Below, in pieces: positions 5,440-41,070 of a stretch of DNA of 64,000 bases (positions are counted from its first letter, which is position 1; the number at the start of each line of letters is the position of its first letter). The translations under genes and the position numbers were made by a program. This DNA is from a virus (taxonomy: Duplodnaviria; Heunggongvirae; Uroviricota; Caudoviricetes). Under the pieces are notes generated by a model, which was not told the origin of the DNA, did not search any database, and worked only from the letters and a program-made list of their open reading frames with translations. Where the stretch lies: IMG/VR virus record IMGVR_UViG_3300032046_000009. One strand, written 5' to 3'.

Positions 5440-5680
5440 TCCGTAGAATGCAACTGAGAATGTCACATAAGCGCACATAGGCGTTTTTTTGATTCCAATT
5501 ATTTTCTGGTCAGAGCTTCCACGCCGTCCGTTTTACCTGTCGGTTTGCCCTGCTTAATCACCTGATTAAAAGTTCTCCACAGTTCCGCGAGCCTTTCGGA
5601 TAATAAAGTCACCGTTTGCCAAAACGTCTTTTTTTCAGGGCTATTTTGGCATTCAGGGGAGCTAGAGGGGGGGGACTTGT
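5440..5680. repeat. composite intergenic module copy 1 (GTCACATAAGCGCACATAGGCGTTTTTTT ... palindrome ... AACGTCTTTTTTTCAGGG..GCTAGAGGGGGGGGACT)
   Basis: shares about 45-nt 5 prime block, internal TTAATCA palindrome and 3 prime G-rich block with copies at 19745-20035 and 40840-41070. Confidence 0.6.
5554..5569. promoter_or_regulatory. palindromic site TTAATCACCTGATTAA
   Basis: 16-bp perfect palindrome family TTAATCA-NN-TGATTAA. Confidence 0.6.
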
Positions 5681-5699
5681 TTATAATGGGGTATTAATC

Positions 5700-6260
5700 A
5701 GTTGTTTAAAATAGAGCTATAGCACTATGTCAGTCAGCACGTTGTCGTATGCCAACTATTCACTCCATAGACCCTTTACGTATGACAACCCTTTTCTTTA
5801 CGTATGTAAAGGTCATCAGTATCTTTTATCGAGCATTTCTTTTATCCATGTACTCCACTTTTTAGCTATTCTGGGGGTCTAGTACCACTTTTAGGGGTCT
5901 TTTGAGGGGTATAGGGAGTCATCTAGGGGGTTAGTGATTAGAGGTCGTTAGGGGTTCGTGGTTAAGGGGGTCGGACGGGGGTTCTCTGGGGTTCGGGAAT
6001 TTACTTAACAATTTCTGTTAATGGTTAGGGGGGTCGGGGTAAAGGGTGCATGTGGCATGAGAGAGCCTGTTACGAGCTACGATTCGTTAATCAGTTGATT
6101 AAAAGTTCGGGTTTGCCTGTGTCGCCTTGCTACGGGCTTGGCAGAACTTGGGTCAGTCTGGGTTGACTAGGTGAAATCAAAAAGTGTTAAGGATTCTTAA
6201 CAAAAATTGTCTAAGTTTGCAGAGGGTAAAAGAGGGGGTTTCGAGAGAGGTTAGAAGGAA
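5700..6260. repeat. G-tract-rich non-coding block (irregularly spaced TAGGGG(G)T / GGGGTC units, more than 15 G4-5 runs)
   Basis: read directly; no ORF; contains palindrome at 6087-6102. Confidence 0.6.
6087..6102. promoter_or_regulatory. palindromic site TTAATCAGTTGATTAA
   Basis: TTAATCA-NN-TGATTAA family. Confidence 0.6.
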
Positions 6261-6389
6261 TGAGTAGAACGGGCGAAGGGAAAGCGCGAGAAAGGACGGT
6301 GAAAAAATGGAACAATATCCCTTCGCCCTTGATAGAGTAGTATGTCAAACGGGTATATAAAGGTTGTGGTAGAAAGACCATGCTCGAAT

Positions 6390-6617
6390 CTAGTGTTCGA
6401 CTTTATAGATTCCATAGAGCAGTACCAATATTCCAACAGGGACACCCAAAAATAGAAGCGGTGAAAATAGCGCACCAAAAGTAGCAGAAAAAGCGAAAAT
6501 GAAAATTCCACCCAGAATTGCCCCTATACTTTGGGTTAGAGGGTCACGTATGACTTCGATGGTTCTTGTGTAGAGCCACTTAAAGAATCCTATTTTTTGC
6601 TTGACCATCTTGTTCAC
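6390..6617 (-). CDS. small membrane protein (75 aa, 2 predicted TM helices)
   Basis: track ORF; hydrophobic stretches; promoter box 6641-6675. Confidence 0.5.
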   Translation of the reverse strand: MNKMVKQKIGFFKWLYTRTIEVIRDPLTQSIGAILGGIFIFAFSATFGALFSPLLFLGVPVGILVLLYGIYKVEH

Positions 6618-6671
6618 TTGATAATAACAACAACACCGAGCTATATAAAGGTTTCCTAAGAACGTCCATGC

Positions 6672-6809
6672 TCAAAATTCAATGTGAACTTTGAGTATTC
6701 CAGAAAGTATTAGAGCTATTACAACTACGAAAAAGGCTATCGGGGCAAATGCCATGATTATGCCAGCGTTCTCTTTTACTTTCTTAATCACGGTTTTTAG
6801 TGTTATCAT
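6672..6809 (-). CDS. small membrane protein (about 45 aa, 1 TM) with approx 105-nt structured 5 prime leader
   Basis: hand-translated; leader 6810-6915 has hairpins GGAAAC-AA-GGTTTCC and CGTCC...GGACG; promoter box 6941-6980. Confidence 0.3.
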   Translation of the reverse strand: MITLKTVIKKVKENAGIIMAFAPIAFFVVVIALILSGILKVHIEF

Positions 6810-7165
6810 TTTAGACCACTTAGATTAGCGCGGAACACGGACGATTCTCCAATAAGCGTCCATCACTCGTCAGCTAAGGACGTAGTTTGGAAACCTTGTT
6901 TCCGTGCTCATACGAGTAATACAATAATCAAACAACTATATAAAGATTGTGGTAGAAACATCATACTCAAAAAAAGAGAGTTTTAGAGAAATTGTTTATT
7001 CTCTGTCCGTATCTGAATGTCAATGTCCGTAACGAGTATTTCAATGCTGTCTATGTTTTGTTGTTTCTTGCGTCTTTTAGTCTTTACGGCATCTTTTAAG
7101 AGCTTTATGACGTATCGAGCTTGTTTCGGGGTTATTTTGACCTTAAACTCTTTGTCTATCATGGC

Positions 7166-7513
7166 TTAAGCGTCCTTCAAGTAAAGCGTATATCCGACTG
7201 AGAACCATCCCGTTTGGCAGAAGCCAATAATAACGGTTTCTCCGCGCGTTTCGCACTCTTTTATCTTGTCTTTCAGCAATTCGGTCATTGCTTTCGGGTC
7301 TGTTCCAGATTCACCCATAGTTGCTATCCATCCAGAATGAAGGTGTTCATTTTGAAGCCCTGTGCCTGAACGGGTCGTAATTTTGTCGTCATTTCCTAGT
7401 TCAATAGCGTGGTAGCCCCGTTTCTTTGCCAGCGCGTCTAATCTGTCATAGTCTTGGAAAACATTGCAATGGACGGGTGGGAATTTGTCTTTTGATGTTA
7501 GGAAGTTCTTCAT
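7166..7513 (-). CDS. hypothetical protein (115 aa)
   Basis: track ORF, operon with 7525..7914. Confidence 0.5.
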   Translation of the reverse strand: MKNFLTSKDKFPPVHCNVFQDYDRLDALAKKRGYHAIELGNDDKITTRSGTGLQNEHLHSGWIATMGESGTDPKAMTELLKDKIKECETRGETVIIGFCQTGWFSVGYTLYLKDA

Positions 7514-7524
7514 TGCTCAGTCAC

Positions 7525-7914
7525 CTATTGATGTCCGTCTTGAATATTCTGGAAAACTTCAATGAATCCGTGCATGTGAACGGCACACGCGAATAACTCA
7601 TAGATTCCATAGTATGACGCAAAGTTGTCATAACCAACACCCGAATCTACGAAGATTCTGGGTCGCTTTTGGACATTGCCCTTCTCTGTGAGTCCCGCTA
7701 GAACAACGACACGTTTTTCTGGGTTCTTTAGAAGATATTTTTCTAATTGTTCTCTTGCCTCTTTGCCGAAGTTGTCCTCAATGTTCGCTAGGTTCAAGTA
7801 TGTCAGCTTAGAGTATCGTTCAGATGGTTGTGCTGGATATTGGTTTTCGAGCCATGACTCTGAGGGTTTAACGTTCTTCGATGTCAGCTTTTCCTTTAAC
7901 TCTTGTAACTTCAT
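7525..7914 (-). CDS. hypothetical protein (129 aa)
   Basis: track ORF; promoter box 7948-7984. Confidence 0.5.
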   Translation of the reverse strand: MKLQELKEKLTSKNVKPSESWLENQYPAQPSERYSKLTYLNLANIEDNFGKEAREQLEKYLLKNPEKRVVVLAGLTEKGNVQKRPRIFVDSGVGYDNFASYYGIYELFACAVHMHGFIEVFQNIQDGHQ

Positions 7915-8149
7915 AGTTTCAACCTTTGAAGAGTAGTGTTCGCCGTCCTATATAAAGGTTCGCTAAGAACGAACGTGCTCAAAATTTTAGGGGGGTCTTG
8001 GCTAGTGCGTTTCGCCGTGACCCTAGTTTTATTTAATGTAGAGGTTGAAATTTGCCCTATGTCGTATCGCACCGCATAAGGATTTTTCAACGTGCGGAAT
8101 AGACATATACACACCGAAGTATATAAACTTTCGCTAAGAACAACCATAC

Positions 8150-8533
8150 TCAGAGAGGAATAACACCTAGCCATTTATAAACTTCGGTGTTAATTTCAGC
8201 CATACCCGAACCCGTCCATACGTTGTGAGGAATAGAAGTATGAAGAGACTCTGGAATGAAAATAACGTGTGATTTATCGATGTGGTGTCCTTCTGAACCG
8301 TTAAAAGGTGCGTTTAGAATAATAGAGCCTAATTCTCGGCGTTTAGCTTGAATCCTAGCTTGCGTTTTCTTGTGATAAATTCGATGTTCTCTCTCATATT
8401 TTCTCTCATAGTTTGGGTTTTCTAATCTCCATTTCCTCTTATATAACTTTACCTCTTTCTTATGTTTCAAACGCCAATTCTTGTAATATGTAATACGTTT
8501 TTCTCTTGAATCTGTGAGCGTCATTTGATTCAC
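8150..8533 (-). CDS. HNH-like nuclease-motif protein (127 aa), paralog of 9378..9704
   Basis: basic N-terminus; shared C-terminal block GxxxHHID...IPxxLHxSIxHxVWTGxGMAEIN with the paralog; promoter box 8119-8152. Confidence 0.4.
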   Translation of the reverse strand: MNQMTLTDSREKRITYYKNWRLKHKKEVKLYKRKWRLENPNYERKYEREHRIYHKKTQARIQAKRRELGSIILNAPFNGSEGHHIDKSHVIFIPESLHTSIPHNVWTGSGMAEINTEVYKWLGVIPL

Positions 8534-8579
8534 ATTAAACTAAATGTTAAACGTGCTTATAAAGGTTTCGGTAAAAGTT

Positions 8580-13593: not shown

Positions 13594-14292
13594 TCAGTCC
13601 TCTTCTTTCTTGTTCTTCTTTGCCTTTTCTGCCTTTTGGTCACAGAGAAAACTTTCGCATTGCCCGTTCAATTCGTCCAGCATATTCACGGTGTCTAACA
13701 TTTCGTTATATCGCTCGTGTCCCTTCATGCTTTCGATGTGTGAATTGCAAATCTCAACTGCTTTTCGACATCTCCAAAGTGTGCTCTGAGCCATGCGTTT
13801 GTCTTTTAACCCGTCCTCTGCCATCTTGACGTGTTCCATTATGAAGTTAAGAATGAACTCTGCTTTCTTGTCTTTGTAGTTTTCGAATCCTTCTGGGGTC
13901 GTGAAAATCGGAATGATTTTTATGCGTCTGTCGATGTCCTCAAATCCTTTGCTCTTTGCCTTTGCCTTTATCTCTTCAATTTCTGCAACAGCTAAGTCCA
14001 GCTTATCGCCGTCCAGAAGCCAACTGCTTTCGAGATGTTTCACAGCGTCCAGCTTGAATTTCAGAGCGAACACAATTGCGTTTCTGAAAATTCGCGCAAG
14101 TTTGTTGAATCGCGTGTTTGCGTCCCGTTGTTCTTTTGTCAACTTTTTCTTTTCCGCGTCCGTCAGATATTTCTCGCTGTAAAGGTCATACTCTATTGTA
14201 TAAATCGTTTCGCCGTGTAGTCCTAACGATTCAAGAGCCTTTTCGTCTATGATGAGTTTGTTTGTCGTTTTTTGGTCAGCCATTTTAATCAC
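13594..14292 (-). CDS. hypothetical protein (232 aa), coiled-coil-like, Lys/Glu-rich
   Basis: track ORF; palindromic site immediately upstream (14285-14300). Confidence 0.55.
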   Translation of the reverse strand: MIKMADQKTTNKLIIDEKALESLGLHGETIYTIEYDLYSEKYLTDAEKKKLTKEQRDANTRFNKLARIFRNAIVFALKFKLDAVKHLESSWLLDGDKLDLAVAEIEEIKAKAKSKGFEDIDRRIKIIPIFTTPEGFENYKDKKAEFILNFIMEHVKMAEDGLKDKRMAQSTLWRCRKAVEICNSHIESMKGHERYNEMLDTVNMLDELNGQCESFLCDQKAEKAKKNKKEED

Positions 14293-14300
14293 TTGATTAA
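14285..14300. promoter_or_regulatory. palindromic site TTAATCACTTGATTAA
   Basis: TTAATCA-NN-TGATTAA family. Confidence 0.6.
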
Positions 14301-14352
14301 CTATAAATACAGCGTCCTATATAAACGTTTGCTAGGAATCTCCATTCTCATT

Positions 14353-14715
14353 TTACTTAATCAGGTGATTAAACGATTTATGACTAATAATTCTGTGACA
14401 ATTCGCGCAGACTAATCGAACGTCCTCTGGAATTTTCTCTGCCCTTCTCCAACGAACCAATTCTTTTACTCTTCGATTCGCATTTTTTTGTTGTTCATTG
14501 CAACGAAGCCATGTATCGTTTCCTTCATGGTGAAAATCATAAACACAAGAATCAAAATGTTTATCGCAATGAAAACACTTATCGCCTAACTTTTGAATCG
14601 CCCAGAGTTTTAATTCTTCTAGCCATTTTTGGTGATATATCTTTTGGCATTCAGGACATCTTTGAGATTTTGTATTTGTTTCTTTTTCACAGTCTTGACA
14701 TTTCATTTGAAACAC
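14353..14715 (-). CDS. HNH endonuclease family protein (120 aa)
   Basis: CxxC...DFHHEGND...N...CANCHRII motif arrangement typical of HNH nucleases. Confidence 0.55.
   Translation of the reverse strand: MFQMKCQDCEKETNTKSQRCPECQKIYHQKWLEELKLWAIQKLGDKCFHCDKHFDSCVYDFHHEGNDTWLRCNEQQKNANRRVKELVRWRRAEKIPEDVRLVCANCHRIISHKSFNHLIK
14357..14372. promoter_or_regulatory. palindromic site TTAATCAGGTGATTAA
   Basis: TTAATCA-NN-TGATTAA family. Confidence 0.6.
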
Positions 14716-14772
14716 TAATTAATAGATGGTTAATTAAGTATTTAAGTCTTATGGTTGATTAATTAGGTGAAT
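14716..14772. promoter_or_regulatory. cluster of degenerate TTAAT/ATTAA palindromic sites (TTAATTAATAGATGGTTAATTAAG ... GTTGATTAATTAGG)
   Basis: read directly. Confidence 0.4.
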
Positions 14773-15050
14773 TGAACACATTCTCTCTCAGGAGCTAAGA
14801 GGTTCCATCTGCCCTTATCATAAATGAATTGTTTTCCTTTGAAAAATAAAAAGTCAAAAGGCAAATCATTTTTACGACAAACTTCGCAAAAATAATGCAA
14901 AAAGTGAGTTTCCCTTATTTTTTGTCTATCGTGTTGTGAAAAACTATCTGTGAAAAAAAGTGTTCCACTTTGTTCTTCCAGAATAGAACCACAAGACGGA
15001 CATTTTCGAGTCAAGCGAATTGAACCGCAAGACGGACAATTTTGAATCAA
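14763..15050 (-). CDS. VxFT-tail family (ECVQFT), four CxxC pairs
   Basis: track ORF. Confidence 0.6.
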   Translation of the reverse strand: MIQNCPSCGSIRLTRKCPSCGSILEEQSGTLFFTDSFSQHDRQKIRETHFLHYFCEVCRKNDLPFDFLFFKGKQFIYDKGRWNLLAPERECVQFT

Positions 15051-15292
15051 GTAAATTGCACCTGTTCTCTAGCTTCGGATTCTGCTAGATAAGTTGTGCA
15101 ACAACAACCATAACGATAATCTTCCGCACCGTCCTTCAAAATCTCCATAAAATTAATTCCATTTCTTCTTTGTCCCTCAATAAGATGACATTTTTTGAAT
15201 CGAGCGCAATTAAAACAACCACGCTCTATCGTTAATTCTTCGTCTTGCCCGATATATGTCATTTTTTCACCAATGGAAAATTTCCCGTTCAA
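15047..15292 (-). CDS. VxFT-tail family (REQVQFT), CFNC...GCCC subfamily; probable start ATG about 15260
   Basis: track ORF; paralog of 38390..38578. Confidence 0.55.
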   Translation of the reverse strand: MNGKFSIGEKMTYIGQDEELTIERGCFNCARFKKCHLIEGQRRNGINFMEILKDGAEDYRYGCCCTTYLAESEAREQVQFT

Positions 15293-15419
15293 CTTTCTTT
15301 TTCGGTTTCGATTTTCGTTTGTGAGTTTGAGCGTATTTTTTCTGATAGTCTTTTCTTCTCTCGATTAGAAATTCTTGCATTTCTCTTCGCGCTAACGCCT
15401 CTTCAATATAATCAGTCAT
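15267..15419 (-). CDS. small basic protein (about 50 aa, MTDYIEEALARREMQEF...)
   Basis: hand-translated. Confidence 0.3.
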   Translation of the reverse strand: MTDYIEEALARREMQEFLIERRKDYQKKYAQTHKRKSKPKKKVEREIFHW

Positions 15420-15452
15420 TTTGGTTTTCCTCAAAAAAGTGGAATTTTGGGT

Positions 15453-15779
15453 TTACCATTTATCGTGTAGCCATAGCCAAATTGCACGTTGTTCAATTGG
15501 TAACTCTTCGAATTCTTTACAGTAGAAATGACGTATGAATTCGAGAAGTTTTCCATCTGCAATTTTGTGGCATTTTTTGTGAATATAGTGAATCCGTCCG
15601 TGTGCTTCGCAATGTGCAGTTTTGTGTTTCGGGTCTAGGCAAATTTCACAGATACCTTTCGGGGGGTTTTTGGGGTCAAACGGTTTCTGCAAAGTTTTTC
15701 GTGTCGGTTGTGGTGTTGGGGGTTCTTCGCCAGCAGGGTTCGCTACTATAATTTTTCTATTGCAAAAGAATCTATTCAT
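15453..15779 (-). CDS. Cys/His-rich small protein (108 aa) co-transcribed downstream of the MoxR ATPase
   Basis: track ORF; overlaps the AAA gene by 1 nt. Confidence 0.55.
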   Translation of the reverse strand: MNRFFCNRKIIVANPAGEEPPTPQPTRKTLQKPFDPKNPPKGICEICLDPKHKTAHCEAHGRIHYIHKKCHKIADGKLLEFIRHFYCKEFEELPIEQRAIWLWLHDKW

Positions 15780-16667
15780 TTAGGTATCCTCTTCTTTCTT
15801 TTTCAACTTTTCTACGTCTATCTCAGAGCTATCTTCGAAGAACGACCTAAATAAATTGCGCTCTTCTCTTGCGGTGTAAAGCGAACTTGCTATATCGATT
15901 ATGTCCTCTTCGGACATCTTCGCTTTGTAGAGTTTGCCGTAGTTTATTAGGTTGCCTGTCGTGAGGGGCGTTCTAAGTTTTCCGTTCTCGTATTCGGTTC
16001 GCGTCTTTTTGGCAATTTCTACGAACTTCGCAGAAAAGTCATAGTTTCCAGAGAACTTCTTTACCAATTCGCGTTCTTTCTGGGGGCTAAGGTATTCGAT
16101 TATCAGACCTTCAAATCGTCTAATGGTTGCAATGTTCTCGATGAATGTCCCAGAGTAACCCGATTTTTCTGAGGGGTTATAGCTGATAACGAGATAGTGC
16201 TGTGCTGTCCGTGTGAATTGCTTCTTGTATTCTGGAATATACACGTTTCCCCTAAAGTCTGCCAATGATTCCAGAAGTGAAATTATCGATGGTTCTGCAT
16301 AGTTGAACCCGTCTATGTAAAGCAGACCTTTCTCGCTGTTCAACCATTGAATTATGATTCCATCTCTTGTTTCTGTGCTTCCAGCTTTCAGAGTATCACA
16401 TGCCAGCAAATCCCACTTTGTCACGTCCCGTGTTAAGACAATTTCAAAAAGCGGAACCTCTAACAATTCAGCCAACTTGTGAACAAGAGTTGTTTTGCCC
16501 GTCCCCGTTTCGCCGACTAATCTAAGGTTGCCGACAATTTCAAGAATCGCTCTTGACTTTTCAATGTAGCCATGTTCGTCCACGAACTCGATGCCTTTGA
16601 CGTAGATGCCAGCACCTTCAAGTGCTGATTCGACCTTTGCATGAATCTTTTCAAATTCTGAGTTCAT
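15780..16667 (-). CDS. MoxR-family AAA+ ATPase
   Basis: Walker A GETGTGKT; MoxR-like block LYIDGFNYAEPSIISLLESL; 295 aa. Confidence 0.7.
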   Translation of the reverse strand: MNSEFEKIHAKVESALEGAGIYVKGIEFVDEHGYIEKSRAILEIVGNLRLVGETGTGKTTLVHKLAELLEVPLFEIVLTRDVTKWDLLACDTLKAGSTETRDGIIIQWLNSEKGLLYIDGFNYAEPSIISLLESLADFRGNVYIPEYKKQFTRTAQHYLVISYNPSEKSGYSGTFIENIATIRRFEGLIIEYLSPQKERELVKKFSGNYDFSAKFVEIAKKTRTEYENGKLRTPLTTGNLINYGKLYKAKMSEEDIIDIASSLYTAREERNLFRSFFEDSSEIDVEKLKKKEEDT

Positions 16668-16698
16668 CTTTATTACCTTACGAGTATAGATGCCAGCG

Positions 16699-16756
16699 TC
16701 CTATTTAAATGTTTGCTTAGAAAGACCATGTTCATTTTAGTTAATCAACTGATTAA
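16699..16756 (-). promoter_or_regulatory. promoter box (TATTTAAAT TATA, GACCATGTTCA upstream element) plus upstream palindromic site TTAATCAACTGATTAA (16741-16756)
   Basis: near-identical architecture repeated at 18963-19023 for the VWA gene. Confidence 0.6.
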
Positions 16757-16805
16757 AATTTCTCAAAACCCCTCTCCCGCCCGAACCAAAGGTTGCACCA
16801 AAAGT

Positions 16806-17033
16806 TTAAGTAAATTGCACTTCTTCTCTGCCCGATTCTTGGCAATGAAATTGAACAACGTTAAAAGATTCATAAGTAGAGTCTGCCCCAGACAACTTTG
16901 AAAACTCTTCCGAAACTTTTTTTACACACTCAAGACAATAACAGTCATTCGGATTTTTAAGTCTATCACTTTTGCATTTTCCGTTGCAGAAAAAATTGTT
17001 CTTACAATGTGTGCAATGTCTTTTATATTTCAC
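16806..17033 (-). CDS. VxFT-tail family (EEVQFT, TAA stop), CxxCxxxFxC subfamily; singleton inside the MoxR/VWA operon
   Basis: track ORF. Confidence 0.6.
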   Translation of the reverse strand: MKYKRHCTHCKNNFFCNGKCKSDRLKNPNDCYCLECVKKVSEEFSKLSGADSTYESFNVVQFHCQESGREEVQFT

Positions 17034-17210
17034 AAGTTATCACATTCGAGTTTTGTTAAGTTTACTTCGTTTCAATTCGCAATAAAGCATAGTCCACAAG
17101 AATTTTTTGGTTAGCTTTATCTTGTGTTTATTGTATTCGAAGAGGTCTTTAGAAATTTCGTCTGCCAATTTTCTACATTCTTTATCGTCAATTATGCAAA
17201 CCATTTTTAC

Positions 17211-18938
17211 TCACTTCTGGGTTTCTACGTTTAGATACACGTTTAGGAATCTCTGAGGTAATTCGGATATTTGGTTTATCCGTGTTCGTGAGCACTTCAA
17301 GTTTTTCACTTTGCTTGCGAAGGTTTCTACATTCTCACAGTCACAGAAACCTATGAAGATACATTCAATTCCAGCTTTCGCATATTGGTCGATTAATTCC
17401 TCTGCTTTCGTTTCTTCATCACCACAGAAGCAGAAATCGGACGCAATGACCAGAATCTTTCGGCGTTCGCCTTTAATCGTATTGAACATTCTCAGGCTTG
17501 CCTCTAATCCAACGGAAACCTCAGTACCGCCAGCATTCACCGAAATAGCTCCAATTCTTGCCCGTGTGTTTTCGAAGGTTTCAAAGAAAGTCTTTACTTT
17601 CTGGGTATCTGCCCCAAAGCACCCAATACTGAACCCGTAATCGTCAACGTAATGTCCAAAGACCTCATTCAGTATAGTGGTTATCTTTTCAGCCTCTATT
17701 CGACTAACTGACCCTGAGAAATCGAACCAAAATTGAATTGCGACTTGTTCCTTCTCAAATTTTGTTGTTGTACGCAGATACACATTGCGAACGGTTCCCC
17801 TAAAGCTGTTTGTGTAGATGCGTGGAACAATTGGACTCATCATTTTTCCGCGTTTCTGGAAAATGTCCCGTTGAACTCTCGGTTTCATTTTCTTCTTTAG
17901 TTGATTCAATAGCTCGGAAATTTCAGGCTTGCATTCGTCCAGAAGTTTCGAATACGCCTCAAAATCTGGGTCTGGGGCTGGAATCTCTTCGCCTGTGCCT
18001 TCGCCAGCACCCGAACCTTTCTGCAAATCTTCTAGGTGTTTCTTCTTGTCCTCTTCTGCCTTTTCTTGCTCTTCCTCTTTTTCTAGTAATTGCCTAAGTC
18101 TGTCCGATATTTTGCCCTTTACGTTGCCCCCTCTTCTAGAAACGACATATTCCTTTGTCGTATAGTCAGCGTTCAAGTGTTTAGCTACCAATTCATAAAT
18201 CGTTTGGCAAGACCTTATTATGTCGAGTTTGACACGTTGATATTTCGTCCCCTCTAGCACTTTAAGGGCTGTTTCACAGTCCTTTCTAGCATCTGGGCTT
18301 AGTTTGTTCCATAACTCTGTGCATTTAGCCTCATATAGACCTTCATTGCACAAAATTGCAACCATGTAAACCCCGTCTTGTTGTCCAGCTTGAATTGTCA
18401 TGTTTGGAATTTCGTTTTCGCCTAAGTTTTCGCCCTTCGGTAAGATGGTTGACATGGCTATTTGTGGCTTTTCAATTGTGTTGTCTATCATGTCTTTTAG
18501 TATCAAATTCGCCAAAAGTAGCCTCTTGCCGACATCAAACCTGTATCTGAGAATTATGAAATGATTCACGCGCTTATCTTCAACTATGTTGCAAACTTCG
18601 TGAGCCAGCTTGTAAAATCCTCTCTGTCGTTTGATTTTTGTTGTCCAATTGTTGAAAAATTCCCAATTCGGTTTTGTTAGAATCAGATGACCGCACTCGT
18701 GAACCATGTCACCGTCTAGGATTTTTCGGAATAGACGGGGCGATGTTTTCACGAAATCGGGATAACTCTGTAAACTCAAAGAAATCTCAAAGTTTTCCAT
18801 ATTGAAAGCAGAAGTTGGTTGTTCTGGAATATACTTGATACGAATCCGTTTGTCCTTCGTAATTGCTATGGCAAGATTCCTCATCTCGTCAAGTATCTTA
18901 GAGAAGTTGTTCGTCTTTGCTTGTTTCTGCTTTGTCAT
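17211..18938 (-). CDS. von Willebrand factor A domain protein with N-terminal HExxH (HECGH) zincin-like motif and acidic linker
   Basis: MIDAS motif DFSGSVS plus downstream GGTE and D; 575 aa; adjacent to the MoxR ATPase. Confidence 0.6.
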   Translation of the reverse strand: MTKQKQAKTNNFSKILDEMRNLAIAITKDKRIRIKYIPEQPTSAFNMENFEISLSLQSYPDFVKTSPRLFRKILDGDMVHECGHLILTKPNWEFFNNWTTKIKRQRGFYKLAHEVCNIVEDKRVNHFIILRYRFDVGKRLLLANLILKDMIDNTIEKPQIAMSTILPKGENLGENEIPNMTIQAGQQDGVYMVAILCNEGLYEAKCTELWNKLSPDARKDCETALKVLEGTKYQRVKLDIIRSCQTIYELVAKHLNADYTTKEYVVSRRGGNVKGKISDRLRQLLEKEEEQEKAEEDKKKHLEDLQKGSGAGEGTGEEIPAPDPDFEAYSKLLDECKPEISELLNQLKKKMKPRVQRDIFQKRGKMMSPIVPRIYTNSFRGTVRNVYLRTTTKFEKEQVAIQFWFDFSGSVSRIEAEKITTILNEVFGHYVDDYGFSIGCFGADTQKVKTFFETFENTRARIGAISVNAGGTEVSVGLEASLRMFNTIKGERRKILVIASDFCFCGDEETKAEELIDQYAKAGIECIFIGFCDCENVETFASKVKNLKCSRTRINQISELPQRFLNVYLNVETQK

Positions 18939-19488: not shown

Positions 19489-19744
19489 TTAAATGCGCCT
19501 CGCACCGCGTCCCGTTTGGCAAAAGCGACCATTGTGAAAGCTGTGCTGGAAATTGAGCATGGCGTTTTTAGGGAAAGATTTATAAGCTACCGTGTTGTAG
19601 TATTCACAAAGAGGCACAAATATGTTTCCGTTTGATACTCTGGGTTTCATAATAGGTTTAATTGTTCTTGCAAAAGTAGTTAAAACTTTCAGGCGACCCG
19701 TTGGTTGTCCCGACCCGTCAGAACTTGAGGAAGCACTAGAGGAC

Positions 19745-20035
19745 GAAGGCTAGGTCACACTTTCGGTGTAACTTTCCGTCCCCTCGAAAATTAAATTTTT
19801 AGTAGAATCCTGAGTGTCACATAACGCACATAGGCGTTTTTTCTTCCCAATTAGATTTCGGTTTATGGTGAAGCCCTCTGCCAGCCCCCAACGTATTCCC
19901 CAGACTTTTAATCAACTGATTAAAAAAGCACCGACTTCAGGCTTCAGTTCCCATTGGCTTCGCCCTAGCATCCAGAACGTCTTTTTCCCTAGTCTATTTA
20001 CCTGTCAAATGTAGCTAGGGGTAGGGGACTAATCG
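19745..20035. repeat. composite intergenic module copy 2
   Basis: GTCACATAACGCACATAGGCGTTTTTT ... TTAATCAACTGATTAA (19908-19923) ... AACGTCTTTTTCCC..GCTAGGGGTAGGGGACTA. Confidence 0.6.
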
Positions 20036-28434: not shown

Positions 28435-29115
28435 CTATTGTTTGGTATTTTTGTTTTTGGTTTCTTTGACGCAAACACACTTTCGATTGTTGAGCAATGC
28501 CCCAATTATCAGTCCTAGTATGAAAGTCAGTATGATTATCAAGAGCCAACATGGGTTACAGTCTTTCTTGTTGTCGGTGATATAGACGTAGAATGGCTTG
28601 TCAACGTAAACAACTCTGTTCACGTAAAGGACTTTCTCGATGTACTTGATGACTTCTTTTGGCACTTCGATATAGACCGTGTTGTTGCAGTATTTGATTA
28701 TTTCGACTTCCTTGATGACTTCGACAGGCACTTCCTTAATGACTTCTTTGATGACCTCTATTGGCACTTCAACGTAAACGACTGTTTCAACAACTTTGTC
28801 AACATAGACAATCTTTTCAACTATTCTGTCAATGTAAACAGTCTTTTCCACTATTCTGTCTTTGTAAACGATTTTCTCAACAACTCTGTCAACGTACACT
28901 ATTCTGTCCACGTAAACAGGAACTTCAACCGTTTGGTTGACGTAAACAATTCTGTCCACGTAGATTATTTTGGTCTTGTTGTTACAAGAGTTGCCATCGT
29001 CACCGTCATTGCAATTTGGCTTATCATTGTCGTCAGAAGCAAATGCTGGAACTATCACTATTGGTATCACTAACGCAATCAAAAGCGCGATTATTATCAA
29101 ATTTCTTTTTTTCAT
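28435..29115 (-). CDS. secreted/surface repetitive protein: signal peptide, approx 11-aa (33-bp) VYVDRIVEK-type tandem repeats, C-terminal TM anchor
   Basis: track ORF; N-terminal hydrophobic leader; DNA tandem repeats 28790-28960; C-terminal hydrophobic helix plus basic tail. Confidence 0.55.
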   Translation of the reverse strand: MKKRNLIIIALLIALVIPIVIVPAFASDDNDKPNCNDGDDGNSCNNKTKIIYVDRIVYVNQTVEVPVYVDRIVYVDRVVEKIVYKDRIVEKTVYIDRIVEKIVYVDKVVETVVYVEVPIEVIKEVIKEVPVEVIKEVEIIKYCNNTVYIEVPKEVIKYIEKVLYVNRVVYVDKPFYVYITDNKKDCNPCWLLIIILTFILGLIIGALLNNRKCVCVKETKNKNTKQ

Positions 29116-35879: not shown

Positions 35880-36640
35880 TGCCATGCTCAGTTTCGAAGT
35901 TAGTTCGAAAAAGTATATGAATTAAATTTAAGATTTAATGGGACTGTTATATAATTTTTCATGGTCTTTTCCCATAGGTTATAAACTATTCCATAAATCC
36001 TAAATATAATCCTTGATAGATTTCGGAGTTAGTTCGAAACATCAAAAAGTCCATACTTTTACCATAGACTATTCGAACAATTTTCGAAAAGAAAATATAA
36101 TTATTTAGGATTTTATGGATTAAAATAACTATCCGATTGCCCAGAGAAGCCATAAGAATGCCCCGTTTGACAAAAGGACATAGATATAAAAAATATTAAA
36201 ATTATATTTTAGAATTTTAATCAGGTGATTAACCGTGGTCGTATATTGCATGGACAATATAGGATAATTAATCAACTGATTAAAAATTCGAAAAATCGGG
36301 TGAGTCGCGCTCGCGCAAAATTTTGAGCATTCGAAAAAAAACTAACGTAGAAAAATTGAAAATGAAACATCCAAAACGGAACAGCCGTTAGGGGGTTTCG
36401 CTTCGTCCACTTGAACGGGACGGGCACGATTAGGCTAGAAGTACGTGTTTCTTTCTACACGCATTTTAATTCTATATACCAATTCATTAAATATATATAA
36501 TGGAAACAGTAATCGTTGTTTCAAGTCCTATTCTAGCATTCAGACGATTCGTTGTGGTGTAGTTTTCCATGCTATCACCCATAGCTGAGAAGTAGTATGT
36601 GCAAACTACTATATAAAGGTTGTGGTAGAAGAACCATGCT
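35880..36640. repeat. AT-rich repeat-rich intergenic region (TTCGAA-containing direct repeats, two palindromic sites at 36227-36242 and 36278-36293)
   Basis: direct repeat TTCG(A/G)AGTTAGTTCGAAA at 35893 and 36022; no ORFs; long AT tracts. Confidence 0.5.
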
Positions 36641-37350: not shown

Positions 37351-37364
37351 AGTGATTCTTTTGC

Positions 37365-37921: not shown

Positions 37922-38121
37922 GTAAATTGCACCCTTATTCTATCATCCACTTTAGGTTTCAAGTCGAAAATCTCTCGCTGTATATTCTTATATCTGAGCC
38001 ATTTATTTTCTTGTTTAAAATGTTCTTCACAAAGAAAAATTATTTCTACTCTGTTCACCTTTTTGTAAACGTGAACTTCTTTTACAGCTTCTTTATTGCA
38101 CATCGGAATTTGGCATTTCAA
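37918..38121 (-). CDS. VxFT-tail family (RIRVQFT)
   Basis: track ORF. Confidence 0.6.
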   Translation of the reverse strand: MKCQIPMCNKEAVKEVHVYKKVNRVEIIFLCEEHFKQENKWLRYKNIQREIFDLKPKVDDRIRVQFT

Positions 38122-38393
38122 GTGAATTGCACCTTCACAAAATCGTCCGCGAACTCTTTGGCTAATTCGTTTGCTTCACCTATTCCCTTTGAAAATATTA
38201 TAGACGCGCCCCATCTTTTCTTTTCAATTTTGATATTTGGGTCTTTCTCTTTAAGAAATTTCAACCACTTCCAAAAACAACCACAATCAGCACCAATATA
38301 AAATACAGGATTTAGTTTAAGAATGTTGGTTGTCCCCGTTTCCCTAAACATCGTGGCTTTTCCGTTTTCCTTTCCGCATTTAGCACAAATCAT
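38118..38393 (-). CDS. VxFT-tail family (DFVKVQFT); ATG start at the junction
   Basis: track ORF 38118..38438 trimmed. Confidence 0.55.
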   Translation of the reverse strand: MICAKCGKENGKATMFRETGTTNILKLNPVFYIGADCGCFWKWLKFLKEKDPNIKIEKKRWGASIIFSKGIGEANELAKEFADDFVKVQFT

Positions 38394-38578: not shown

Positions 38579-38763
38579 GTAAAGTTCACCTTTTCCTTTA
38601 CCTCTATGCAAGTATGTCTAGGTTGTGGTTCTCCACTATTACTAACTGCTGTCCAGAGGCAATGTTCACAGCAGAAGTTTTGTTCACCAATATCGTGAGC
38701 GTCCCCGTATTGTTCATAAGACCGTCCGCAAACGTCACACTTAACAATTTGCCAAGTCGTCAA
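38575..38763 (-). CDS. VxFT-tail family (KEKVNFT)
   Basis: track ORF. Confidence 0.6.
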   Translation of the reverse strand: MTTWQIVKCDVCGRSYEQYGDAHDIGEQNFCCEHCLWTAVSNSGEPQPRHTCIEVKEKVNFT

Positions 38764-38996
38764 GTGAACACAACCTTCTCTCTAGTATAGTCTGCAATTT
38801 TCCCCTTAAATACTTCCCAAGTTGGGTTTATTTTCTTAGGATATTTAGCAACAAAAAATGTATTATGGTCAGCAAAAAACTCTAGCCATTTTCTTAGACA
38901 AGAACCACAAAGAATAGCGTCTATAGAATGAGGATATTTTAGTTTATCTTCTGTCACCGTGAAAACTCGTCCACATTTCTCACAGTTTCTTTTAGT
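38760..38996 (-). CDS. VxFT-tail family (REKVVFT); TTG start overlapping the upstream TTTGACTAA
   Basis: track ORF 38760..39047 trimmed. Confidence 0.5.
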   Translation of the reverse strand, partial: TKRNCEKCGRVFTVTEDKLKYPHSIDAILCGSCLRKWLEFFADHNTFFVAKYPKKINPTWEVFKGKIADYTREKVVFT

Positions 38997-39225
38997 CAAA
39001 GCTAACAACTTCTGGACGTTCCTCTTCTGCAAGAACTTCCTTTGCACTTCCTTCCATGTTTCCTAAAATATAAGTGAATCCTTTTTCTTTACCTTCCGTA
39101 CAAAGTTCATACCATCTTGCAAGTCGTCTGAGATGTTCTTCACTTTTAAAATGAGTATCAACGCCTCTCTTTGTTGCAAAGTTTTTCTTGCACAAACCAC
39201 AACGCGCGTAGAATTTCTTAGGCAT
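38992..39225 (-). CDS. VxFT-tail family variant (PEVVSFD, TAA stop) with C2H2-like zinc finger (CGLC-x12-H-x5-H)
   Basis: track ORF. Confidence 0.55.
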   Translation of the reverse strand: MPKKFYARCGLCKKNFATKRGVDTHFKSEEHLRRLARWYELCTEGKEKGFTYILGNMEGSAKEVLAEEERPEVVSFD

Positions 39226-39315
39226 TAATCAAGTTCTCCTAAGTCGAATGGATTCCCGTGAGGCATCGGTCTAGTCGGGCGTTCATCGTCCTCAATGAAA
39301 GGACGCGGAATGAAT

Positions 39316-39972
39316 CTATGCTTCACCATTTATTATCTCCTTCAATTCCTTTATTCTTCTTCTATCGTAATATGTGTTTCGTTCATAATAGTTGACGTTT
39401 ACTTTTACGAATTGTCCCTTATCTTTTTTTGCTTTCCTGACTTGTTCCAAATCATCGGCTAGTTCTTTCTTCCAATATTCCAATTCCCGTTCAGCCCAGA
39501 ACTTTGTCAAATCCCATCTTTTACTTTTCGGATAATAGACATACAACATACTTCGCATGGGATTTTCTTCATGCTGTTTCTTGTCATAAGTTGAATAACC
39601 AGAGTGCATATAGAAAGATTCGAGTTTTTCTCTTTCCATGAATTGATGAATTGTATTTAGGTAATGTTCGACAGTTTCCATGTATTCGGGTGTTTGAGCG
39701 TCAATCTCCCCTCTGAGAGAAAGAAGGCATGACCAATATTGGTGTGACCAAATCCATCTACCTGTCGGATACCACGGATAAGGTATGTCCGAGTTCTCGA
39801 AAGACTTCTTTACTAACGCTAGAAAAACTTCACCGAGTTCATCAAGAACGTCATAATATTCATCTGTTGTACCTTTTCTACTCACACGAAACGGGTGTCG
39901 AATAGCTAAATGGTGAAGGTCTTGCAACCGTTCCATTGTAACTATAATTTTCTTTCTCTTTTCCTCAATCAT
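39316..39972 (-). CDS. hypothetical protein (218 aa)
   Basis: track ORF. Confidence 0.55.
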   Translation of the reverse strand: MIEEKRKKIIVTMERLQDLHHLAIRHPFRVSRKGTTDEYYDVLDELGEVFLALVKKSFENSDIPYPWYPTGRWIWSHQYWSCLLSLRGEIDAQTPEYMETVEHYLNTIHQFMEREKLESFYMHSGYSTYDKKQHEENPMRSMLYVYYPKSKRWDLTKFWAERELEYWKKELADDLEQVRKAKKDKGQFVKVNVNYYERNTYYDRRRIKELKEIINGEA

Positions 39973-40193
39973 TATTCATCCTTCCCTGTATCAAGAAAGT
40001 GCATTGCTTCCATGACGCTAACGTATTGGTTTGTTCTCGTTAGAATCTTGAAAAATTCGGAGTCAAGATATTCAGTTAAGACTTTTGGGTGTTTCTTTGC
40101 AACCCATTGAATGAGACATTGAGCATTATCGAGATTGGTTTTCGGTCTGTTCCTGATTCCTATCTGCTTCATTGTATCTCTAACTTTTCCCAT
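39972..40193 (-). CDS. hypothetical protein (73 aa)
   Basis: track ORF; promoter box 40228-40262. Confidence 0.5.
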   Translation of the reverse strand: MGKVRDTMKQIGIRNRPKTNLDNAQCLIQWVAKKHPKVLTEYLDSEFFKILTRTNQYVSVMEAMHFLDTGKDE

Positions 40194-40325
40194 TAATCGG
40201 TCACTACCTAGAGATATAGCTTTCCCCTATATAAAGGTTTAGTAAGAACTCCCATGCTCAAAACCCTATGAGTATCGCTGGTTTGCATGGACTTCTCCAT
40301 GCCGAAGGTCATAAAAGGAACTATT

Positions 40326-40341
40326 TTAATCAGTTGATTAA
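40326..40341. promoter_or_regulatory. palindromic site TTAATCAGTTGATTAA
   Basis: TTAATCA-NN-TGATTAA family. Confidence 0.6.
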
Positions 40342-40469
40342 ACATTCGGTTTCCATGACCAGCAGGGTTGGGAGCTTTTTTGGCACTTCGAAAAATTTCG
40401 AAAGCCATTCTCTCCATACAAACATCCCCAACCAGCAAAAAAGTGATGGTCATTTGCGAGACCTGTAAA

Positions 40470-40640
40470 AATTATCTGCCTCGAAATTTGCTCGTTTTCG
40501 GAAATTCGACTCAGTTCGAAACTCACCCTATGGGAAATTTTCTCGGTGGGAAAGGGCGGGAGCCAAATCGCCCCGAAATTTGCTCGTATTGCCGAGTTCG
40601 ATTCAGTTCGGGGGTCAGATGGCTTTTTTCCACCCCCTCG
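40470..40640. repeat. two imperfect approx 90-bp tandem repeats (CGAAATTTGCTCGT(T/A)TT..GTTCGA..)
   Basis: read directly. Confidence 0.5.
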
Positions 40641-40658
40641 GCTCCATGCCCCAAACTT

Positions 40659-40674
40659 TTAATCAGTTGATTAA
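40659..40674. promoter_or_regulatory. palindromic site TTAATCAGTTGATTAA
   Basis: TTAATCA-NN-TGATTAA family. Confidence 0.6.
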
Positions 40675-40839
40675 TAACTACCGAAAGGTTTATATGGTGC
40701 AACTCGTATTATATAAGGAAGAGTTGAACTTTCAATGACACAGAAAGTTACACTAACCGTAACCTCGAAAGTGACCCAGACGGAAACACGGAAAAGGGTA
40801 ACGCAGAAAAACCTTTAGGAAAAAACCATCGGTCACACT

Positions 40840-41070
40840 TTTTGAAACCACATACCCACACATAGGCGGCGCGCAGGCGAAAATTTGATTTTGGTCGGCG
40901 AACTTTGTGATTTCTGTTATGATTGTTATTTTGGTATTATTTTTATTTCCTATTTCCTGAGCATTTCGATTTAGATTTACTAAGGATTCGAGAAAAGAAA
41001 ATAACTGAAAACGTCTTTTTTTCAGGGAGTTTTGAACGTCTAGGGGAGCTAGGGGTAGGGGACTATCCCA
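40840..41070. repeat. composite intergenic module copy 3 (partial 5 prime block CACATAGGCG; full 3 prime block AACGTCTTTTTTTCAGGG..GCTAGGGGTAGGGGACTA)
   Basis: read directly. Confidence 0.55.

What the first reader, a model, noticed from the sequence alone, without database searches (positions are those of the whole stretch)
5440..41070. Three-copy composite intergenic module (conserved 5 prime block, central palindrome, G-rich 3 prime block)
The regions 5440-5680, 19745-20035 and 40840-41070 share three parts. The first is an approx 45-nt block ending in a small hairpin plus oligo-T (CCGTAGAATG..CTGAGAATGTCACATAAGCGCACATAGGCGTTTTTTT), which could be the 3 prime end of a plus-strand small RNA. 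The second is a TTAATCA palindrome. The third is AACGTCTTTTTTTCAGGG...GCTAGGGGTAGGGGACTA. A partial fourth copy of the first block lies at 100-150. The modules sit in ORF-free islands that separate gene blocks. They could be small RNA genes, replication or partition sites, or recombination hotspots.
Basis: seen in the sequence. Interest (0 to 1): 0.65.

Follow-up and report, generated by a model that had tools for sequence, protein, structure and literature searches.

The report
Repeated intergenic boundary module, archaeal-type virus
A roughly 205-bp non-coding module with five sequence boxes at fixed distances occurs four times in this stretch of a large, probably archaeal, virus genome, always after a short backward-pointing transcription unit, and most likely stops backward transcription and marks borders between gene blocks.

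Summary
There are four complete copies: 146-350, 5474-5676, 19827-20031 and 40859-41063, all on the + strand and antisense to nearly all genes.

Each copy has the same boxes at fixed offsets (within 2 nt), although the interiors cannot be aligned between copies. ACATAGG(CG), usually followed by T6-7, is at 0. AAATTWGATTTTGG is at +22. An optional TTAATCANNTGATTAA palindrome is centred at +88. AACGTC-T5-8 is at +150. GGGGTAGGGG is at +190.

Module copies, in one or two copies per contig stretch, occur in nine related metagenome contig lineages. Those next to the same genes are syntenic. The module is absent from more distant relatives and from IMG/VR.

The palindrome is not specific to the module: the window holds 20 exact copies, mostly beside promoters. 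The "hairpin" is weak and not conserved. No shared ORF, Rfam hit, fold signal or covariation was found.

A + strand TATA-type promoter lies 170-290 nt upstream of all four copies. Two of these units encode conserved mini-proteins of 43 and 27 aa. Every conserved box except the G block carries a T4+ tract on the + strand.

Best reading (about 0.4): a fail-safe archaeal oligo-T termination and boundary cassette for short antisense units, which also serves as a patch of homology for recombination. The fixed geometry and the interiors conserved between orthologues remain unexplained. A fixed-length non-coding RNA, or an origin/enhancer nucleoprotein site, is therefore still possible.

The parts
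146..350 (+). Module copy M0, complete. ACATAGG 147-153, AAAATTTGTTTTT about 169-181, no palindrome, CGTC-T6 299-308, GGGGGTAGGGGGG 336-348. The stop codon of minus-strand gene 352-610 lies 2 nt from the G block.
   Evidence: (nhmmer 107.6 bits)
5474..5676 (+). Module copy M1. ACATAGG 5475-5481, T7 5484-5490, AATTATTTTCTGG, palindrome 5554-5569, CGTC-T7 5625-5635, GCTAGAGGGGGGGGAC 5661-5676.
   Evidence: (155 bits). In strain L050 it is 88-100% identical while the flanks are 18-56% identical.
19827..20031 (+). Module copy M2. ACATAGG 19828-19834, T6 19837-19842, AATTAGATTTCGG, palindrome 19908-19923, CGTC-T5 19978-19986, GCTAGGGGTAGGGGAC 20014-20029.
   Evidence: (154 bits). Syntenic copies lie upstream of the VWA gene in L005, L006/L017, L135, L136, L137, L143 and L008.
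40859..41063 (+). Module copy M3. ACATAGG 40860-40866, no first T-run, AAAATTTGATTTTGG, AT-rich interior without palindrome, CGTC-T7 41012-41022, GCTAGGGGTAGGGGAC 41048-41063.
   Evidence: (129 bits). Orthologues in L141 and L142 also lack the palindrome.
5161..5221 (+). Full 'class II' promoter motif on the + strand. It fires toward M1, with the TATA about 282 nt upstream of ACATAGG. The transcript appears non-coding.
   Evidence: (score 41.4)
19548..19608 (+). Full 'class II' promoter motif on the + strand. It fires toward M2, with the TATA about 248 nt upstream.
   Evidence: (score 42.1). Conserved in L005.
19623..19753 (+). 43-aa hydrophobic mini-protein gene (MFPFDTLGFIIGLIVLAKVV...) with a Shine-Dalgarno sequence. 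It lies between the + promoter and M2, and its stop codon is about 75 nt before ACATAGG.
   Evidence: Sequence. Gene called in L003. Conserved in L005, L006 and L017 and in L135 and L137.
40684..40819 (+). + strand core promoter (40684-40705), preceded by palindrome 40659-40674, followed by a 27-aa ORF (40737-40820, MTQKVTLTVTSKVTQTETRKRVTQKNL). It leads into M3.
   Evidence: The same 27-codon reading frame was read by eye in the L141 sequence.
49..96 (-). Tandem minus-oriented TATA boxes (TATATAAACGTTTCGG / TATATAAAGGTTGTGG) directly left of M0. The same kind of array lies left of module copies in L050, L136 and L008.
36178..36400 (+). Possible degenerate or expanded fifth copy. It has ACATAGATATAAAAAATATTAAAATTATATTT, two palindromes (36217, 36268) and CCAAAACGG...TAGGGGG at 36371-36395. 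The spacing does not match and the profile did not detect it.
   Evidence: not found

Best explanation
Each module is the downstream end of a short transcription unit that runs backwards (+ strand) against the otherwise uniform minus-strand gene direction of a large, probably archaeal, virus.

A TATA-box promoter on the + strand fires toward the module. The unit encodes a mini-protein at M2 and M3 and appears non-coding at M0 and M1.

The module then presents a fixed series of oligo-T tracts on the transcribed strand:
- ACATAGGCG-T6/7
- GATTTTGG
- CTTTTAATCA (the left half of the palindrome)
- AACGTC-T5-8

In archaea such U-tracts terminate transcription without a hairpin, and they do so more efficiently the more tracts there are. 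The cassette would therefore be a fail-safe stop. It would keep antisense RNA polymerase out of the upstream minus-strand gene block, and together with the G-rich end block it would mark the border between two gene blocks.

The central palindrome is the genome-wide operator of an unidentified dimeric viral regulator. Where it is present, it could gate read-through between the first and last terminator.

Because the end boxes are repeated in one orientation, they also act as patches of homology at which strains exchange or replace flanking sequence.

Shown here: the anatomy, copy number, orientation, fixed spacing, synteny, upstream + promoter motifs, breakpoints at the borders, and the absence of an ORF or a structured RNA.

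Inferred: that the T-tracts terminate transcription, that the host is archaeal, that the palindrome binds a regulator, and that the boundary function exists.
For: 1. Orientation. All 4 window copies and every copy in relatives point the same way, antisense to the genes.

2. Upstream + promoters. A position weight matrix built from 26 minus-strand promoters finds only 2 full matches on the + strand in 64 kb. Both lie about 250-280 nt upstream of M1 and M2. Core-only + matches lie 172 nt upstream of M3 and, seen in L047, 172 nt upstream of M0. L005, L136 (both copies), L137 (one copy) and L008 (one copy) also have + core matches 38-265 nt upstream.

3. Small + strand genes. Conserved + ORFs with a Shine-Dalgarno sequence or a leaderless start end 70-90 nt before ACATAGG at M2 and M3.

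4. T-tracts. Each conserved box except the G block contains T4 or more on the + strand. CGTCTTT is invariant across the 13 aligned copy sequences.

5. Archaeal termination. Terminators in archaea are U4+ tracts, need no hairpin, and become more efficient with more tracts (PMC8716108).

6. Archaeal type of the element. The promoter core is TTTATAWA, a TATA box lying 30-35 nt before a Shine-Dalgarno sequence and ATG. One relative lies in an 'uncultured archaeon' MAG. There is no match to phage records.

7. Position. Modules lie at the ends of minus-strand transcription units, with gene stop codons 2, 25 and 135 nt from the G block.

8. Borders. Homology breaks exactly at ACATAGG in L050 and at the G block in L006/L017.
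Against: 1. T6 or longer runs are common on the + strand (79 in 64 kb). Antisense transcripts would soon meet a T-run anyway, so a dedicated 200-bp cassette seems excessive.

2. Termination alone does not explain why box spacing is held to within 2 nt across paralogues with unrelated interiors.

3. It also does not explain why the M1 interior is 88-100% conserved between strains whose flanks are replaced.

4. The first T-run is missing in M0, M3 and L136a. L005 has only T3 at the last box.

5. In L008, + TATA boxes sit only 38-39 nt before ACATAGG (only the first reaches the matrix threshold). A transcript from there would reach the first T-run after about 20 nt.

6. The G-rich end block has no assigned mechanism.

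7. No transcript data were available.
Confidence: 0.4

Rival explanations
1. The module is a gene for a fixed-length (about 125-170 nt) unstructured non-coding RNA on the + strand. Its 5' handle would be ACAUAGGCG...AAUUAGAUUUUGG and its 3' handle AAAACGUC-Un. Its body would be specific to each copy, like a guide or antisense RNA. The U-rich ends could bind an Sm-like protein.
For: - The length between the end boxes is fixed at 150-152 nt although the interiors cannot be aligned.
- Interiors are conserved between orthologues: M1 across strains, M3 against L141, and the right arm of M2 against L005 and L135.
- The last box ends in a near-universal T-run.
- Canonical + TATA boxes lie 38-39 nt before ACATAGG in both L008 copies. 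Degenerate TATA-like sequences lie at the same offset in M2, L005 and L006.
Against: - There is no Rfam hit.
- There is no thermodynamic signal; z-scores run from -1.3 to +2.8.
- There is no covariation.
- The interiors show no complementarity to anything in about 84 kb of the genome beyond the palindrome.
- A T6-7 run sits about 20 nt after the predicted start.
- M0, M1 and M3 lack a TATA at -38.
Confidence: 0.25
2. The module is a nucleoprotein assembly site at the DNA level. It could be a dispersed origin of replication and/or a transcriptional enhancer (like baculovirus homologous regions), or a centromere-like site. Proteins bound to the five boxes would need fixed helical geometry around the central palindrome. 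Transcription from the upstream + promoter might activate it.
For: - The five boxes hold fixed geometry within 2 nt.
- The palindrome is central, with roughly symmetric flanking boxes (GATTTYGG about 54 bp to the left, CCARAACG about 56 bp to the right of the centre; sequences).
- TAGGGG units resemble iterons, and a further G-rich cluster lies at 5870-6050 beside M1.
- Several copies occur in one orientation within non-coding islands.
- AT-rich patches occur at three fixed places.
- A ParB_N-domain gene lies at 63682-63963.
Against: - There is no consistent AT-rich unwinding region. The M1 and M2 interiors are GC-rich and the M0 and M3 interiors are AT-rich.
- Cumulative GC skew shows no turning point at M2 or M3.
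- The palindrome is missing in two of four copies, yet is present 16 times outside modules.
- No initiator gene was identified in the window.
Confidence: 0.2
3. The module is mainly a recombination cassette, or a mobile or miniature element. Dispersed direct repeats would mediate exchange, deletion and shuffling of gene blocks, like the PeSL cassettes of T4-type phages, with no function of its own beyond regulation it picked up.
For: - In L050 homology starts exactly at CACATAGG and the left flank is replaced.
- Synteny with L006/L017 breaks at the G block.
- The L008 copy at the M2 position resembles M3 in sequence.
- Other strain indels end at promoter or palindrome repeats, for example window 660-2349.
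- PeSL-like motifs have been proposed for the archaeal virus HGTV-1 (PMC3950731; PMC2839356 and PMC4122927).
Against: - There are no terminal inverted repeats or target-site duplications (alignments).
- M2 and M3 copies are stably syntenic across relatives whose neighbouring anchor proteins are 61-88% identical to those of the window.
- Paralogue interiors cannot be aligned, so there has been no recent spread.
- Fixed geometry implies selection on the element itself.
Confidence: 0.1
4. The resemblance is chance or low-complexity similarity (T-runs and G-runs) with no shared element.
For: T-runs are frequent on the + strand. Parts of the end blocks are homopolymer-rich.
Against: - The blocks are significantly over-represented.
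- The spacing is identical in all ten copy sequences measured, six of them from relatives.
- nhmmer E-values range from 1e-22 to 1e-50.
- The copies are conserved in synteny.
Confidence: 0.01

Closest known systems
PeSL cassettes (promoter-early plus stem-loop) of T4-type phages, and the analogous TATA-box plus inverted-repeat motif reported upstream of most left-arm ORFs of the haloarchaeal myovirus HGTV-1 (PMC2839356, PMC4122927, PMC3950731)
   Same: Both are repeated composite regulatory motifs in the intergenic regions of a large tailed-virus-like genome rich in small ORFs. In both, strain-level insertions, deletions and replacements end at the repeats. The window's promoter-plus-palindrome pairs (28 promoters, 20 palindromes) match this description closely.
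   Different: - The module is about 205 bp with five boxes at fixed offsets, not a 50-70-bp promoter plus hairpin.
- No promoter was detected inside it.
- It points against the gene direction.
- It occurs only 4 times here, not before most genes.
- No circular excision products or mobility were tested.
Archaeal intrinsic / aCPSF1-assisted terminators (U-tract terminators; PMC8716108, PMC7515710)
   Same: Both have T4-T8 tracts on the transcribed strand after a promoter and a short ORF. Both use several tracts in series and need no hairpin.
   Different: Known terminators are about 23-nt U-rich stretches right after a gene. They are not a 200-bp cassette with conserved non-T boxes (ACATAGGCG, AACGTC, GGGGTAGGGG) at fixed spacing. 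Termination was not measured here.
Bacterial interspersed mosaic elements (BIME/RIP: REP palindromes plus an IHF site) and pneumococcal BOX elements. This comparison is from my own knowledge; no paper was read for it.
   Same: Both are mosaic extragenic repeats built from a few conserved boxes in fixed order. Both lie at the 3' ends of transcription units, occur in many or several copies, and bind proteins and/or influence termination.
   Different: - The host domain and the sequences differ.
- BIMEs are built from palindromic REP units, which are lacking here except for the optional operator.
- Copy number is far lower here.
- The interiors here are copy-specific and conserved between orthologues.
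Baculovirus homologous regions (hrs). This comparison is from my own knowledge.
   Same: Both are dispersed intergenic repeats containing a palindrome in a large dsDNA virus. Both sit between gene blocks and are associated with rearrangements. The hrs act as enhancers and as origins.
   Different: The hrs are tandem arrays of an imperfect palindrome bound by IE-1. The module is a single unit that is not tandem, and its palindrome is optional. Neither origin nor enhancer activity was tested.
Stoperators of cluster A mycobacteriophages (PMC9283540, PMC6550527). This analogue applies to the palindrome only.
   Same: Both are a short operator repeated about 20-30 times across the genome, mostly in short intergenic gaps near promoters, and presumably bound by one viral regulator.
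   Different: Stoperators are asymmetric 13-14-bp sites whose orientation follows transcription and which are bound by a monomer. Here the site is a symmetric 16-bp palindrome, often in pairs 51-72 bp apart around a promoter. The binding protein is unknown.

Membership tests
   The stem has 4-6 pairs and -7.2 to -7.7 kcal/mol, with z-scores of -1.3 and -1.9 in M1 and M2. M0 and M3 have neither the hairpin nor the U-tract. The consensus scan flags only M2.
Archaeal U-tract terminator | U4 or longer tracts, preferably two or more, on the transcribed strand downstream of a promoter-driven unit | tested here: met
   + promoters lie upstream of all 4 copies. T4+ tracts occur in four of the five boxes, and CGTCTTT is invariant. 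The criterion is taken from PMC8716108.
Archaeal U-tract terminator | Transcript 3' ends map to the tracts | not testable with these tools
   No transcriptome data were available.
Structured non-coding RNA family (Rfam or novel) | A match to a curated covariance model | tested here: not met
   There were 0 matches at gathering thresholds. At E up to 1, the only match was a spurious miRNA hit on the palindrome pair at 36.2 kb.
Structured non-coding RNA family (Rfam or novel) | A conserved secondary structure supported by compensatory changes, or folding energy below that of shuffles | tested here: not met
   z-scores run from -1.6 to +2.8 on both strands in 8 copies. RNAalifold on 7 orthologues predicts only the palindrome stem, with 0 compensatory pairs.
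Protein-coding gene | An ORF shared in frame across copies | tested here: not met
   Six-frame translation of 7 copies shows stop codons in every frame, with no common frame.
PeSL-type mobile promoter-terminator cassette | Contains a promoter plus an adjacent stem-loop | tested here: not met
   There is no promoter-matrix hit inside any module. The palindrome is absent from 2 of 4 copies.
PeSL-type mobile promoter-terminator cassette | Indel and rearrangement breakpoints between close relatives coincide with the repeats | tested here: met
   The left border is a breakpoint in L050. The right border is a breakpoint in L006/L017. The sample is small: 2-3 events.
MITE / miniature transposon | Terminal inverted repeats and target-site duplication | tested here: not met
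   The ends, ACATAGG... and ...GGGGTAGGGGAC, are not inverted repeats, and the flanks are not duplicated (alignments). The copies are stably syntenic.
Replication origin / hr-like enhancer / centromere | Repeated protein-binding boxes in fixed geometry around a palindrome or an AT-rich unwinding element | tested here: inconclusive
   The fixed geometry is shown. However, the palindrome is optional, interior composition is inconsistent, and there is no skew inflection.
Replication origin / hr-like enhancer / centromere | Initiation of replication, enhancer activity, or binding of a partition protein | not testable with these tools
   These need experiments or read-depth data.

The most novel reading that the evidence does not exclude
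The modules encode, or are, a new class of element with fixed length and a variable body in archaeal viruses. One possibility is a family of about 150-nt unstructured RNAs with common U-rich handles and copy-specific bodies, acting as guides or decoys against host targets. The other is dispersed origins or enhancers activated by transcription, analogous to baculovirus hrs, which would be the first such elements described for an archaeal virus.
Probability: 0.25. Interest if true: 0.75.

Novelty: new variant of a known kind. Interest (0 to 1): 0.45.

Why it matters
Almost nothing is known about how large uncultivated archaeal viruses organise transcription. This window offers an unusually readable regulatory grammar:
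- two promoter classes;
- a genome-wide palindromic operator;
- a five-box boundary module, conserved in synteny, that ends short antisense units.

If the module is a terminator and insulator, it gives defined, portable parts for archaeal genetics, and an example of how a one-strand genome tolerates backward genes.

If the fixed geometry instead reflects an RNA or an origin, it would be a new kind of viral element.

The breakpoints at the module borders also show how gene blocks are exchanged in this lineage.

Tried and rejected
1. Rfam at gathering and at E up to 1 gave nothing. The tRNA scan found none.
2. Folding of whole modules and of the end blocks on both strands gave no signal. RNAalifold showed no covariation.
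3. Six-frame translation found no shared ORF.
4. A search for targets complementary to the module interiors, in the window plus 20 kb of neighbouring sequence, matched only the palindrome.
5. Phage record searches by DNA and by protein found no match.
6. IMG/VR scans for GCTAGGGGTAGGGGAC, for the left block, and for CGTCTTT-N-GGGGTAGGGG gave only chance hits in unrelated contigs.
7. The idea that the G-block pairs with a C-rich stretch left of M2 holds for 7 bp in M2 and L005 only, and was dropped.
8. A resemblance between AAGTTSAACTT...GGGG and an archaeal ORB (Orc1/Cdc6 origin-recognition) site rests on my memory only. The motif is a palindrome also found away from modules, so I did not pursue it.
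Module content beyond 10 kb left of the window is therefore unknown.
10. A G-quadruplex as a universal feature was rejected: M2 has only two G-tracts.

Full report
**What the window is.** Nearly all ORFs lie on the minus strand, and GC skew falls steadily. The window has no tRNA genes, no Rfam families and no match to phage records by DNA or protein.

The 575-aa VWA-domain protein (17211-18938, minus strand) is encoded on metagenome contigs of 86 and 151 kb. Together, these place the window inside a genome of at least about 167 kb. That genome also carries ribonucleotide reductase, dCMP deaminase, Lon protease and sugar-modification genes.

Relatives are found only in sediment and peat metagenomes, in three IMG/VR contigs, and in one contig of an 'uncultured archaeon' MAG.

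A promoter-like motif recurs 28 times on the minus strand: TGAGCATGG-N3-TTCT-N6-AAnGTTTATAWAGGACG. Its core, TTTATAWA, is an archaeal-type TATA box lying 30-35 nt before a Shine-Dalgarno sequence and start codon. I therefore treat the element as a large archaeal virus. This is an inference and has not been proven.

**The observation.** The supposed partial copy at 100-150 is a full fourth copy at 146-350. A profile built from seven copies finds exactly these four in the window. It finds none in the 10 kb to the left or the 10 kb to the right.

The anatomy is strikingly regular, with offsets measured from ACATAG:
- ACATAG(G), usually followed by CG and T6-7, at 0
- AAATTWGATTTTGG at +21/22
- the centre of a TTAATCANNTGATTAA palindrome at +87 to +89, where present
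- CGTCTTT at +150 to +152
- GGGGT(A)GGGG at +190 to +193

This holds in all ten copy sequences measured, six of them from relatives, although the 50-nt stretches between boxes cannot be aligned between paralogues.

- The 45-nt left block is shared only by M1 and M2. In strain L050 everything left of CACATAGG is replaced by unrelated sequence carrying two TATA boxes.
- The palindrome is not part of the module's identity. It is missing from M0, from M3 and from M3's orthologues. It occurs 20 times in the window against 0.01 expected, often as pairs 51-72 bp apart bracketing a promoter. It is conserved in relatives whose VWA protein is only 44-50% identical. It behaves like the operator of a dimeric regulator.
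- The hairpin before the first T-run is weak and not conserved.

**Conservation.** Nine related contig lineages carry the module: L005, L006/L017, L008, L135, L136, L137, L141, L142 and L143. In the VWA-anchored lineages the VWA protein is 69-88% identical to the window's. L141-L143 were found through the 218-aa protein next to M3, which is 61-85% identical.
- M2 lies upstream of the VWA gene in all those lineages that have it.
- M3 lies upstream of the 218-aa gene in L141 and L142.
- Relatives at about 50% identity lack the module. So does IMG/VR.
- Within strains, M1 is 88-100% identical to L050 while both flanks fall to 18-56%.
- M3 and its L141 orthologue keep the same AT-rich interior.

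Interiors are therefore specific to each copy but are not free to drift.

**What it is not.**
- It is not a protein gene. No frame is shared.
- It is not a structured RNA. There is no Rfam hit. MFE z-scores are about 0 or positive on both strands. RNAalifold on seven orthologues finds only the palindrome stem, with no compensatory change.
- It is not a MITE. It has no terminal inverted repeats, and its copies are stably syntenic.
- The interiors have no complementary target in the roughly 84 kb examined.

**Context that suggests a function.** Scanning with a matrix built from the minus-strand promoters gives only two full matches on the + strand, at 5161-5221 and 19548-19608. Both point at a module about 250-280 nt away.

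Core-only + matches lie 172 nt before M3, and, in the neighbouring sequence L047, 172 nt before M0. Most copies in relatives also have a + promoter 38-265 nt upstream.

Between promoter and module, M2 has a conserved 43-aa hydrophobic ORF. M3 has a 27-aa ORF whose frame I could also read in L141. The M0 and M1 units seem non-coding.

All conserved boxes except the G block carry T4 or more on the + strand, and CGTCTTT is invariant. In archaea, U4+ tracts are the terminator signal. No hairpin is needed, and efficiency rises with the number of tracts (PMC8716108).

On the other side, the G block abuts the end of the preceding minus-strand gene block, with stop codons 2, 25 and 135 nt away. To the left, arrays of minus-oriented TATA boxes restart transcription.

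M1 also separates the territory of the TGAGCATGG-type promoters from that of a second promoter class, which has a GTTSWACASTTRAAAGC upstream element.

**Best explanation (confidence about 0.4).** The module is a fail-safe oligo-T termination and boundary cassette at the end of short antisense transcription units. An optional operator in the middle could gate read-through.

It also acts as a recombination patch. Homology breaks exactly at its left border in L050 and at its right border in L006/L017. The L008 copy at the M2 position resembles M3. Other strain indels end at promoter or palindrome repeats. This is the PeSL logic described for T4-type phages and suggested for the archaeal virus HGTV-1.

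**What this does not explain.** T6 or longer runs are common on the + strand (79 in 64 kb), so a special cassette seems more than is needed. Termination also does not require spacing held to within 2 nt, nor interiors conserved between orthologues. These two facts keep two rivals alive:
- a fixed-length unstructured RNA with common U-rich handles and copy-specific bodies (about 0.25);
- a DNA-level nucleoprotein site such as a dispersed origin, enhancer or centromere (about 0.2).

A purely recombinational or mobile role is less likely (about 0.1). Chance is excluded.

**Novelty.** Repeated promoter and terminator cassettes at gene-block borders are a known kind of element. This five-box, 205-bp, antisense-oriented, syntenically conserved module in an uncultivated archaeal-type virus lineage has not, as far as I could find, been described. 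I rate it a new variant of a known kind and of moderate interest. The rating would rise if the fixed geometry turns out to reflect an RNA or an origin.

Noticed in passing
window 6332-60869 (28 sites on the minus strand), plus 5161-5221 and 19548-19608 on the + strand: A promoter-like motif of about 45 nt, TGAGCATGG-N3-TTCT-N6-AAnGTTTATAWAGGACG, precedes gene blocks. The conserved element upstream of the TATA box suggests a virus-specific activator site.
   Followed up: partly
window 49-5103 and L047 7767-16761 (the sequence to the left of the window): A second promoter class has the same TATA core but a different upstream element (GTTSWACASTTRAAAGC). It occurs on both strands. The switch between the two promoter classes lies at module M1.
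   Followed up: partly
window, 20 sites from 1679 to 56711 (for example the pairs 9267/9332, 14285/14357, 19407/19473 and 36217/36268): The 16-bp palindrome TTAATCANNTGATTAA occurs 20 times against 0.01 expected. It often occurs as pairs flanking a promoter, and it is conserved in relatives down to about 44% protein identity. It is probably the operator of an unidentified dimeric regulator.
   Followed up: partly
window, dozens of gene junctions (for example 38111-38136 and 44977-45002): A conserved gene-junction motif reads GAAGGTG-N4-6-TTCA(C/T)(A/T)TGA on the minus strand. It combines a Shine-Dalgarno sequence with a start codon that overlaps the previous stop codon, which implies tight translational coupling of the small ORFs.
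   Followed up: no
window 4420-6390: This 2-kb island has no ORFs but has promoters on both strands. Units 4498-4813 and 4846-4981 are in swapped order in strains L047, L049 and L050. Extra copies of each unit lie left of the window in L050 and L048. These may be non-coding RNA genes.
   Followed up: partly
window 5870-6050: A cluster of G-rich repeats of the TAGGGG, GAGGGG and TTAGGGG types lies on the + strand just right of M1. It is transcribed from minus-strand promoter 6332-6392 with no ORF. It is partly replaced in strain L050.
   Followed up: partly
window 660-2349, compared with L047: This 1.7-kb segment is absent in a 98%-identical strain. The deletion ends at promoter 639-660 and at palindrome 2353. 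This is an example of repeat-mediated modular loss or gain.
   Followed up: partly
window 109, 1991, 2324, 4974 and 40722 (variants at 5399, 19765 and 40754): A second palindromic motif, AAGTT(G/C)AACTT, is concentrated in the non-coding islands. One copy lies 40-140 nt left of each module.
   Followed up: no
window 28589-28980, inside ORF 28435-29115: In-frame repeats of 18 and 30 nt (TCAACAACTCTGTCAACGTA-like) lie within a 226-aa ORF that has a weak Pfam IMCp match. It is a repetitive protein.
   Followed up: no
window 46025-46453 (+ strand); L008 about 8080-8510 (- strand of the locus): A + strand ORF resembling an HNH endonuclease lies in its own island. A similar-looking Cys/His-rich ORF, compared by eye only, lies directly beside the module upstream of the VWA gene in L008. 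Some VWA homologues carry inteins (PF14528/PF14890).
   Followed up: no
window 13594-18938, compared with L014, L016, L021, L043, L045 and L023: The gene order differs between lineages. It is VWA, then AAA_5 ATPase, then the 232-aa gene in the window's lineage. It is AAA_5, then the 232-aa gene, then VWA in relatives at about 50% identity, which also lack the module.
   Followed up: no
window 63682-63963 (minus strand): A 93-aa protein consisting only of a ParB_N domain is encoded next to a glycosyltransferase cluster. It could be relevant to the palindrome or to partition.
   Followed up: no
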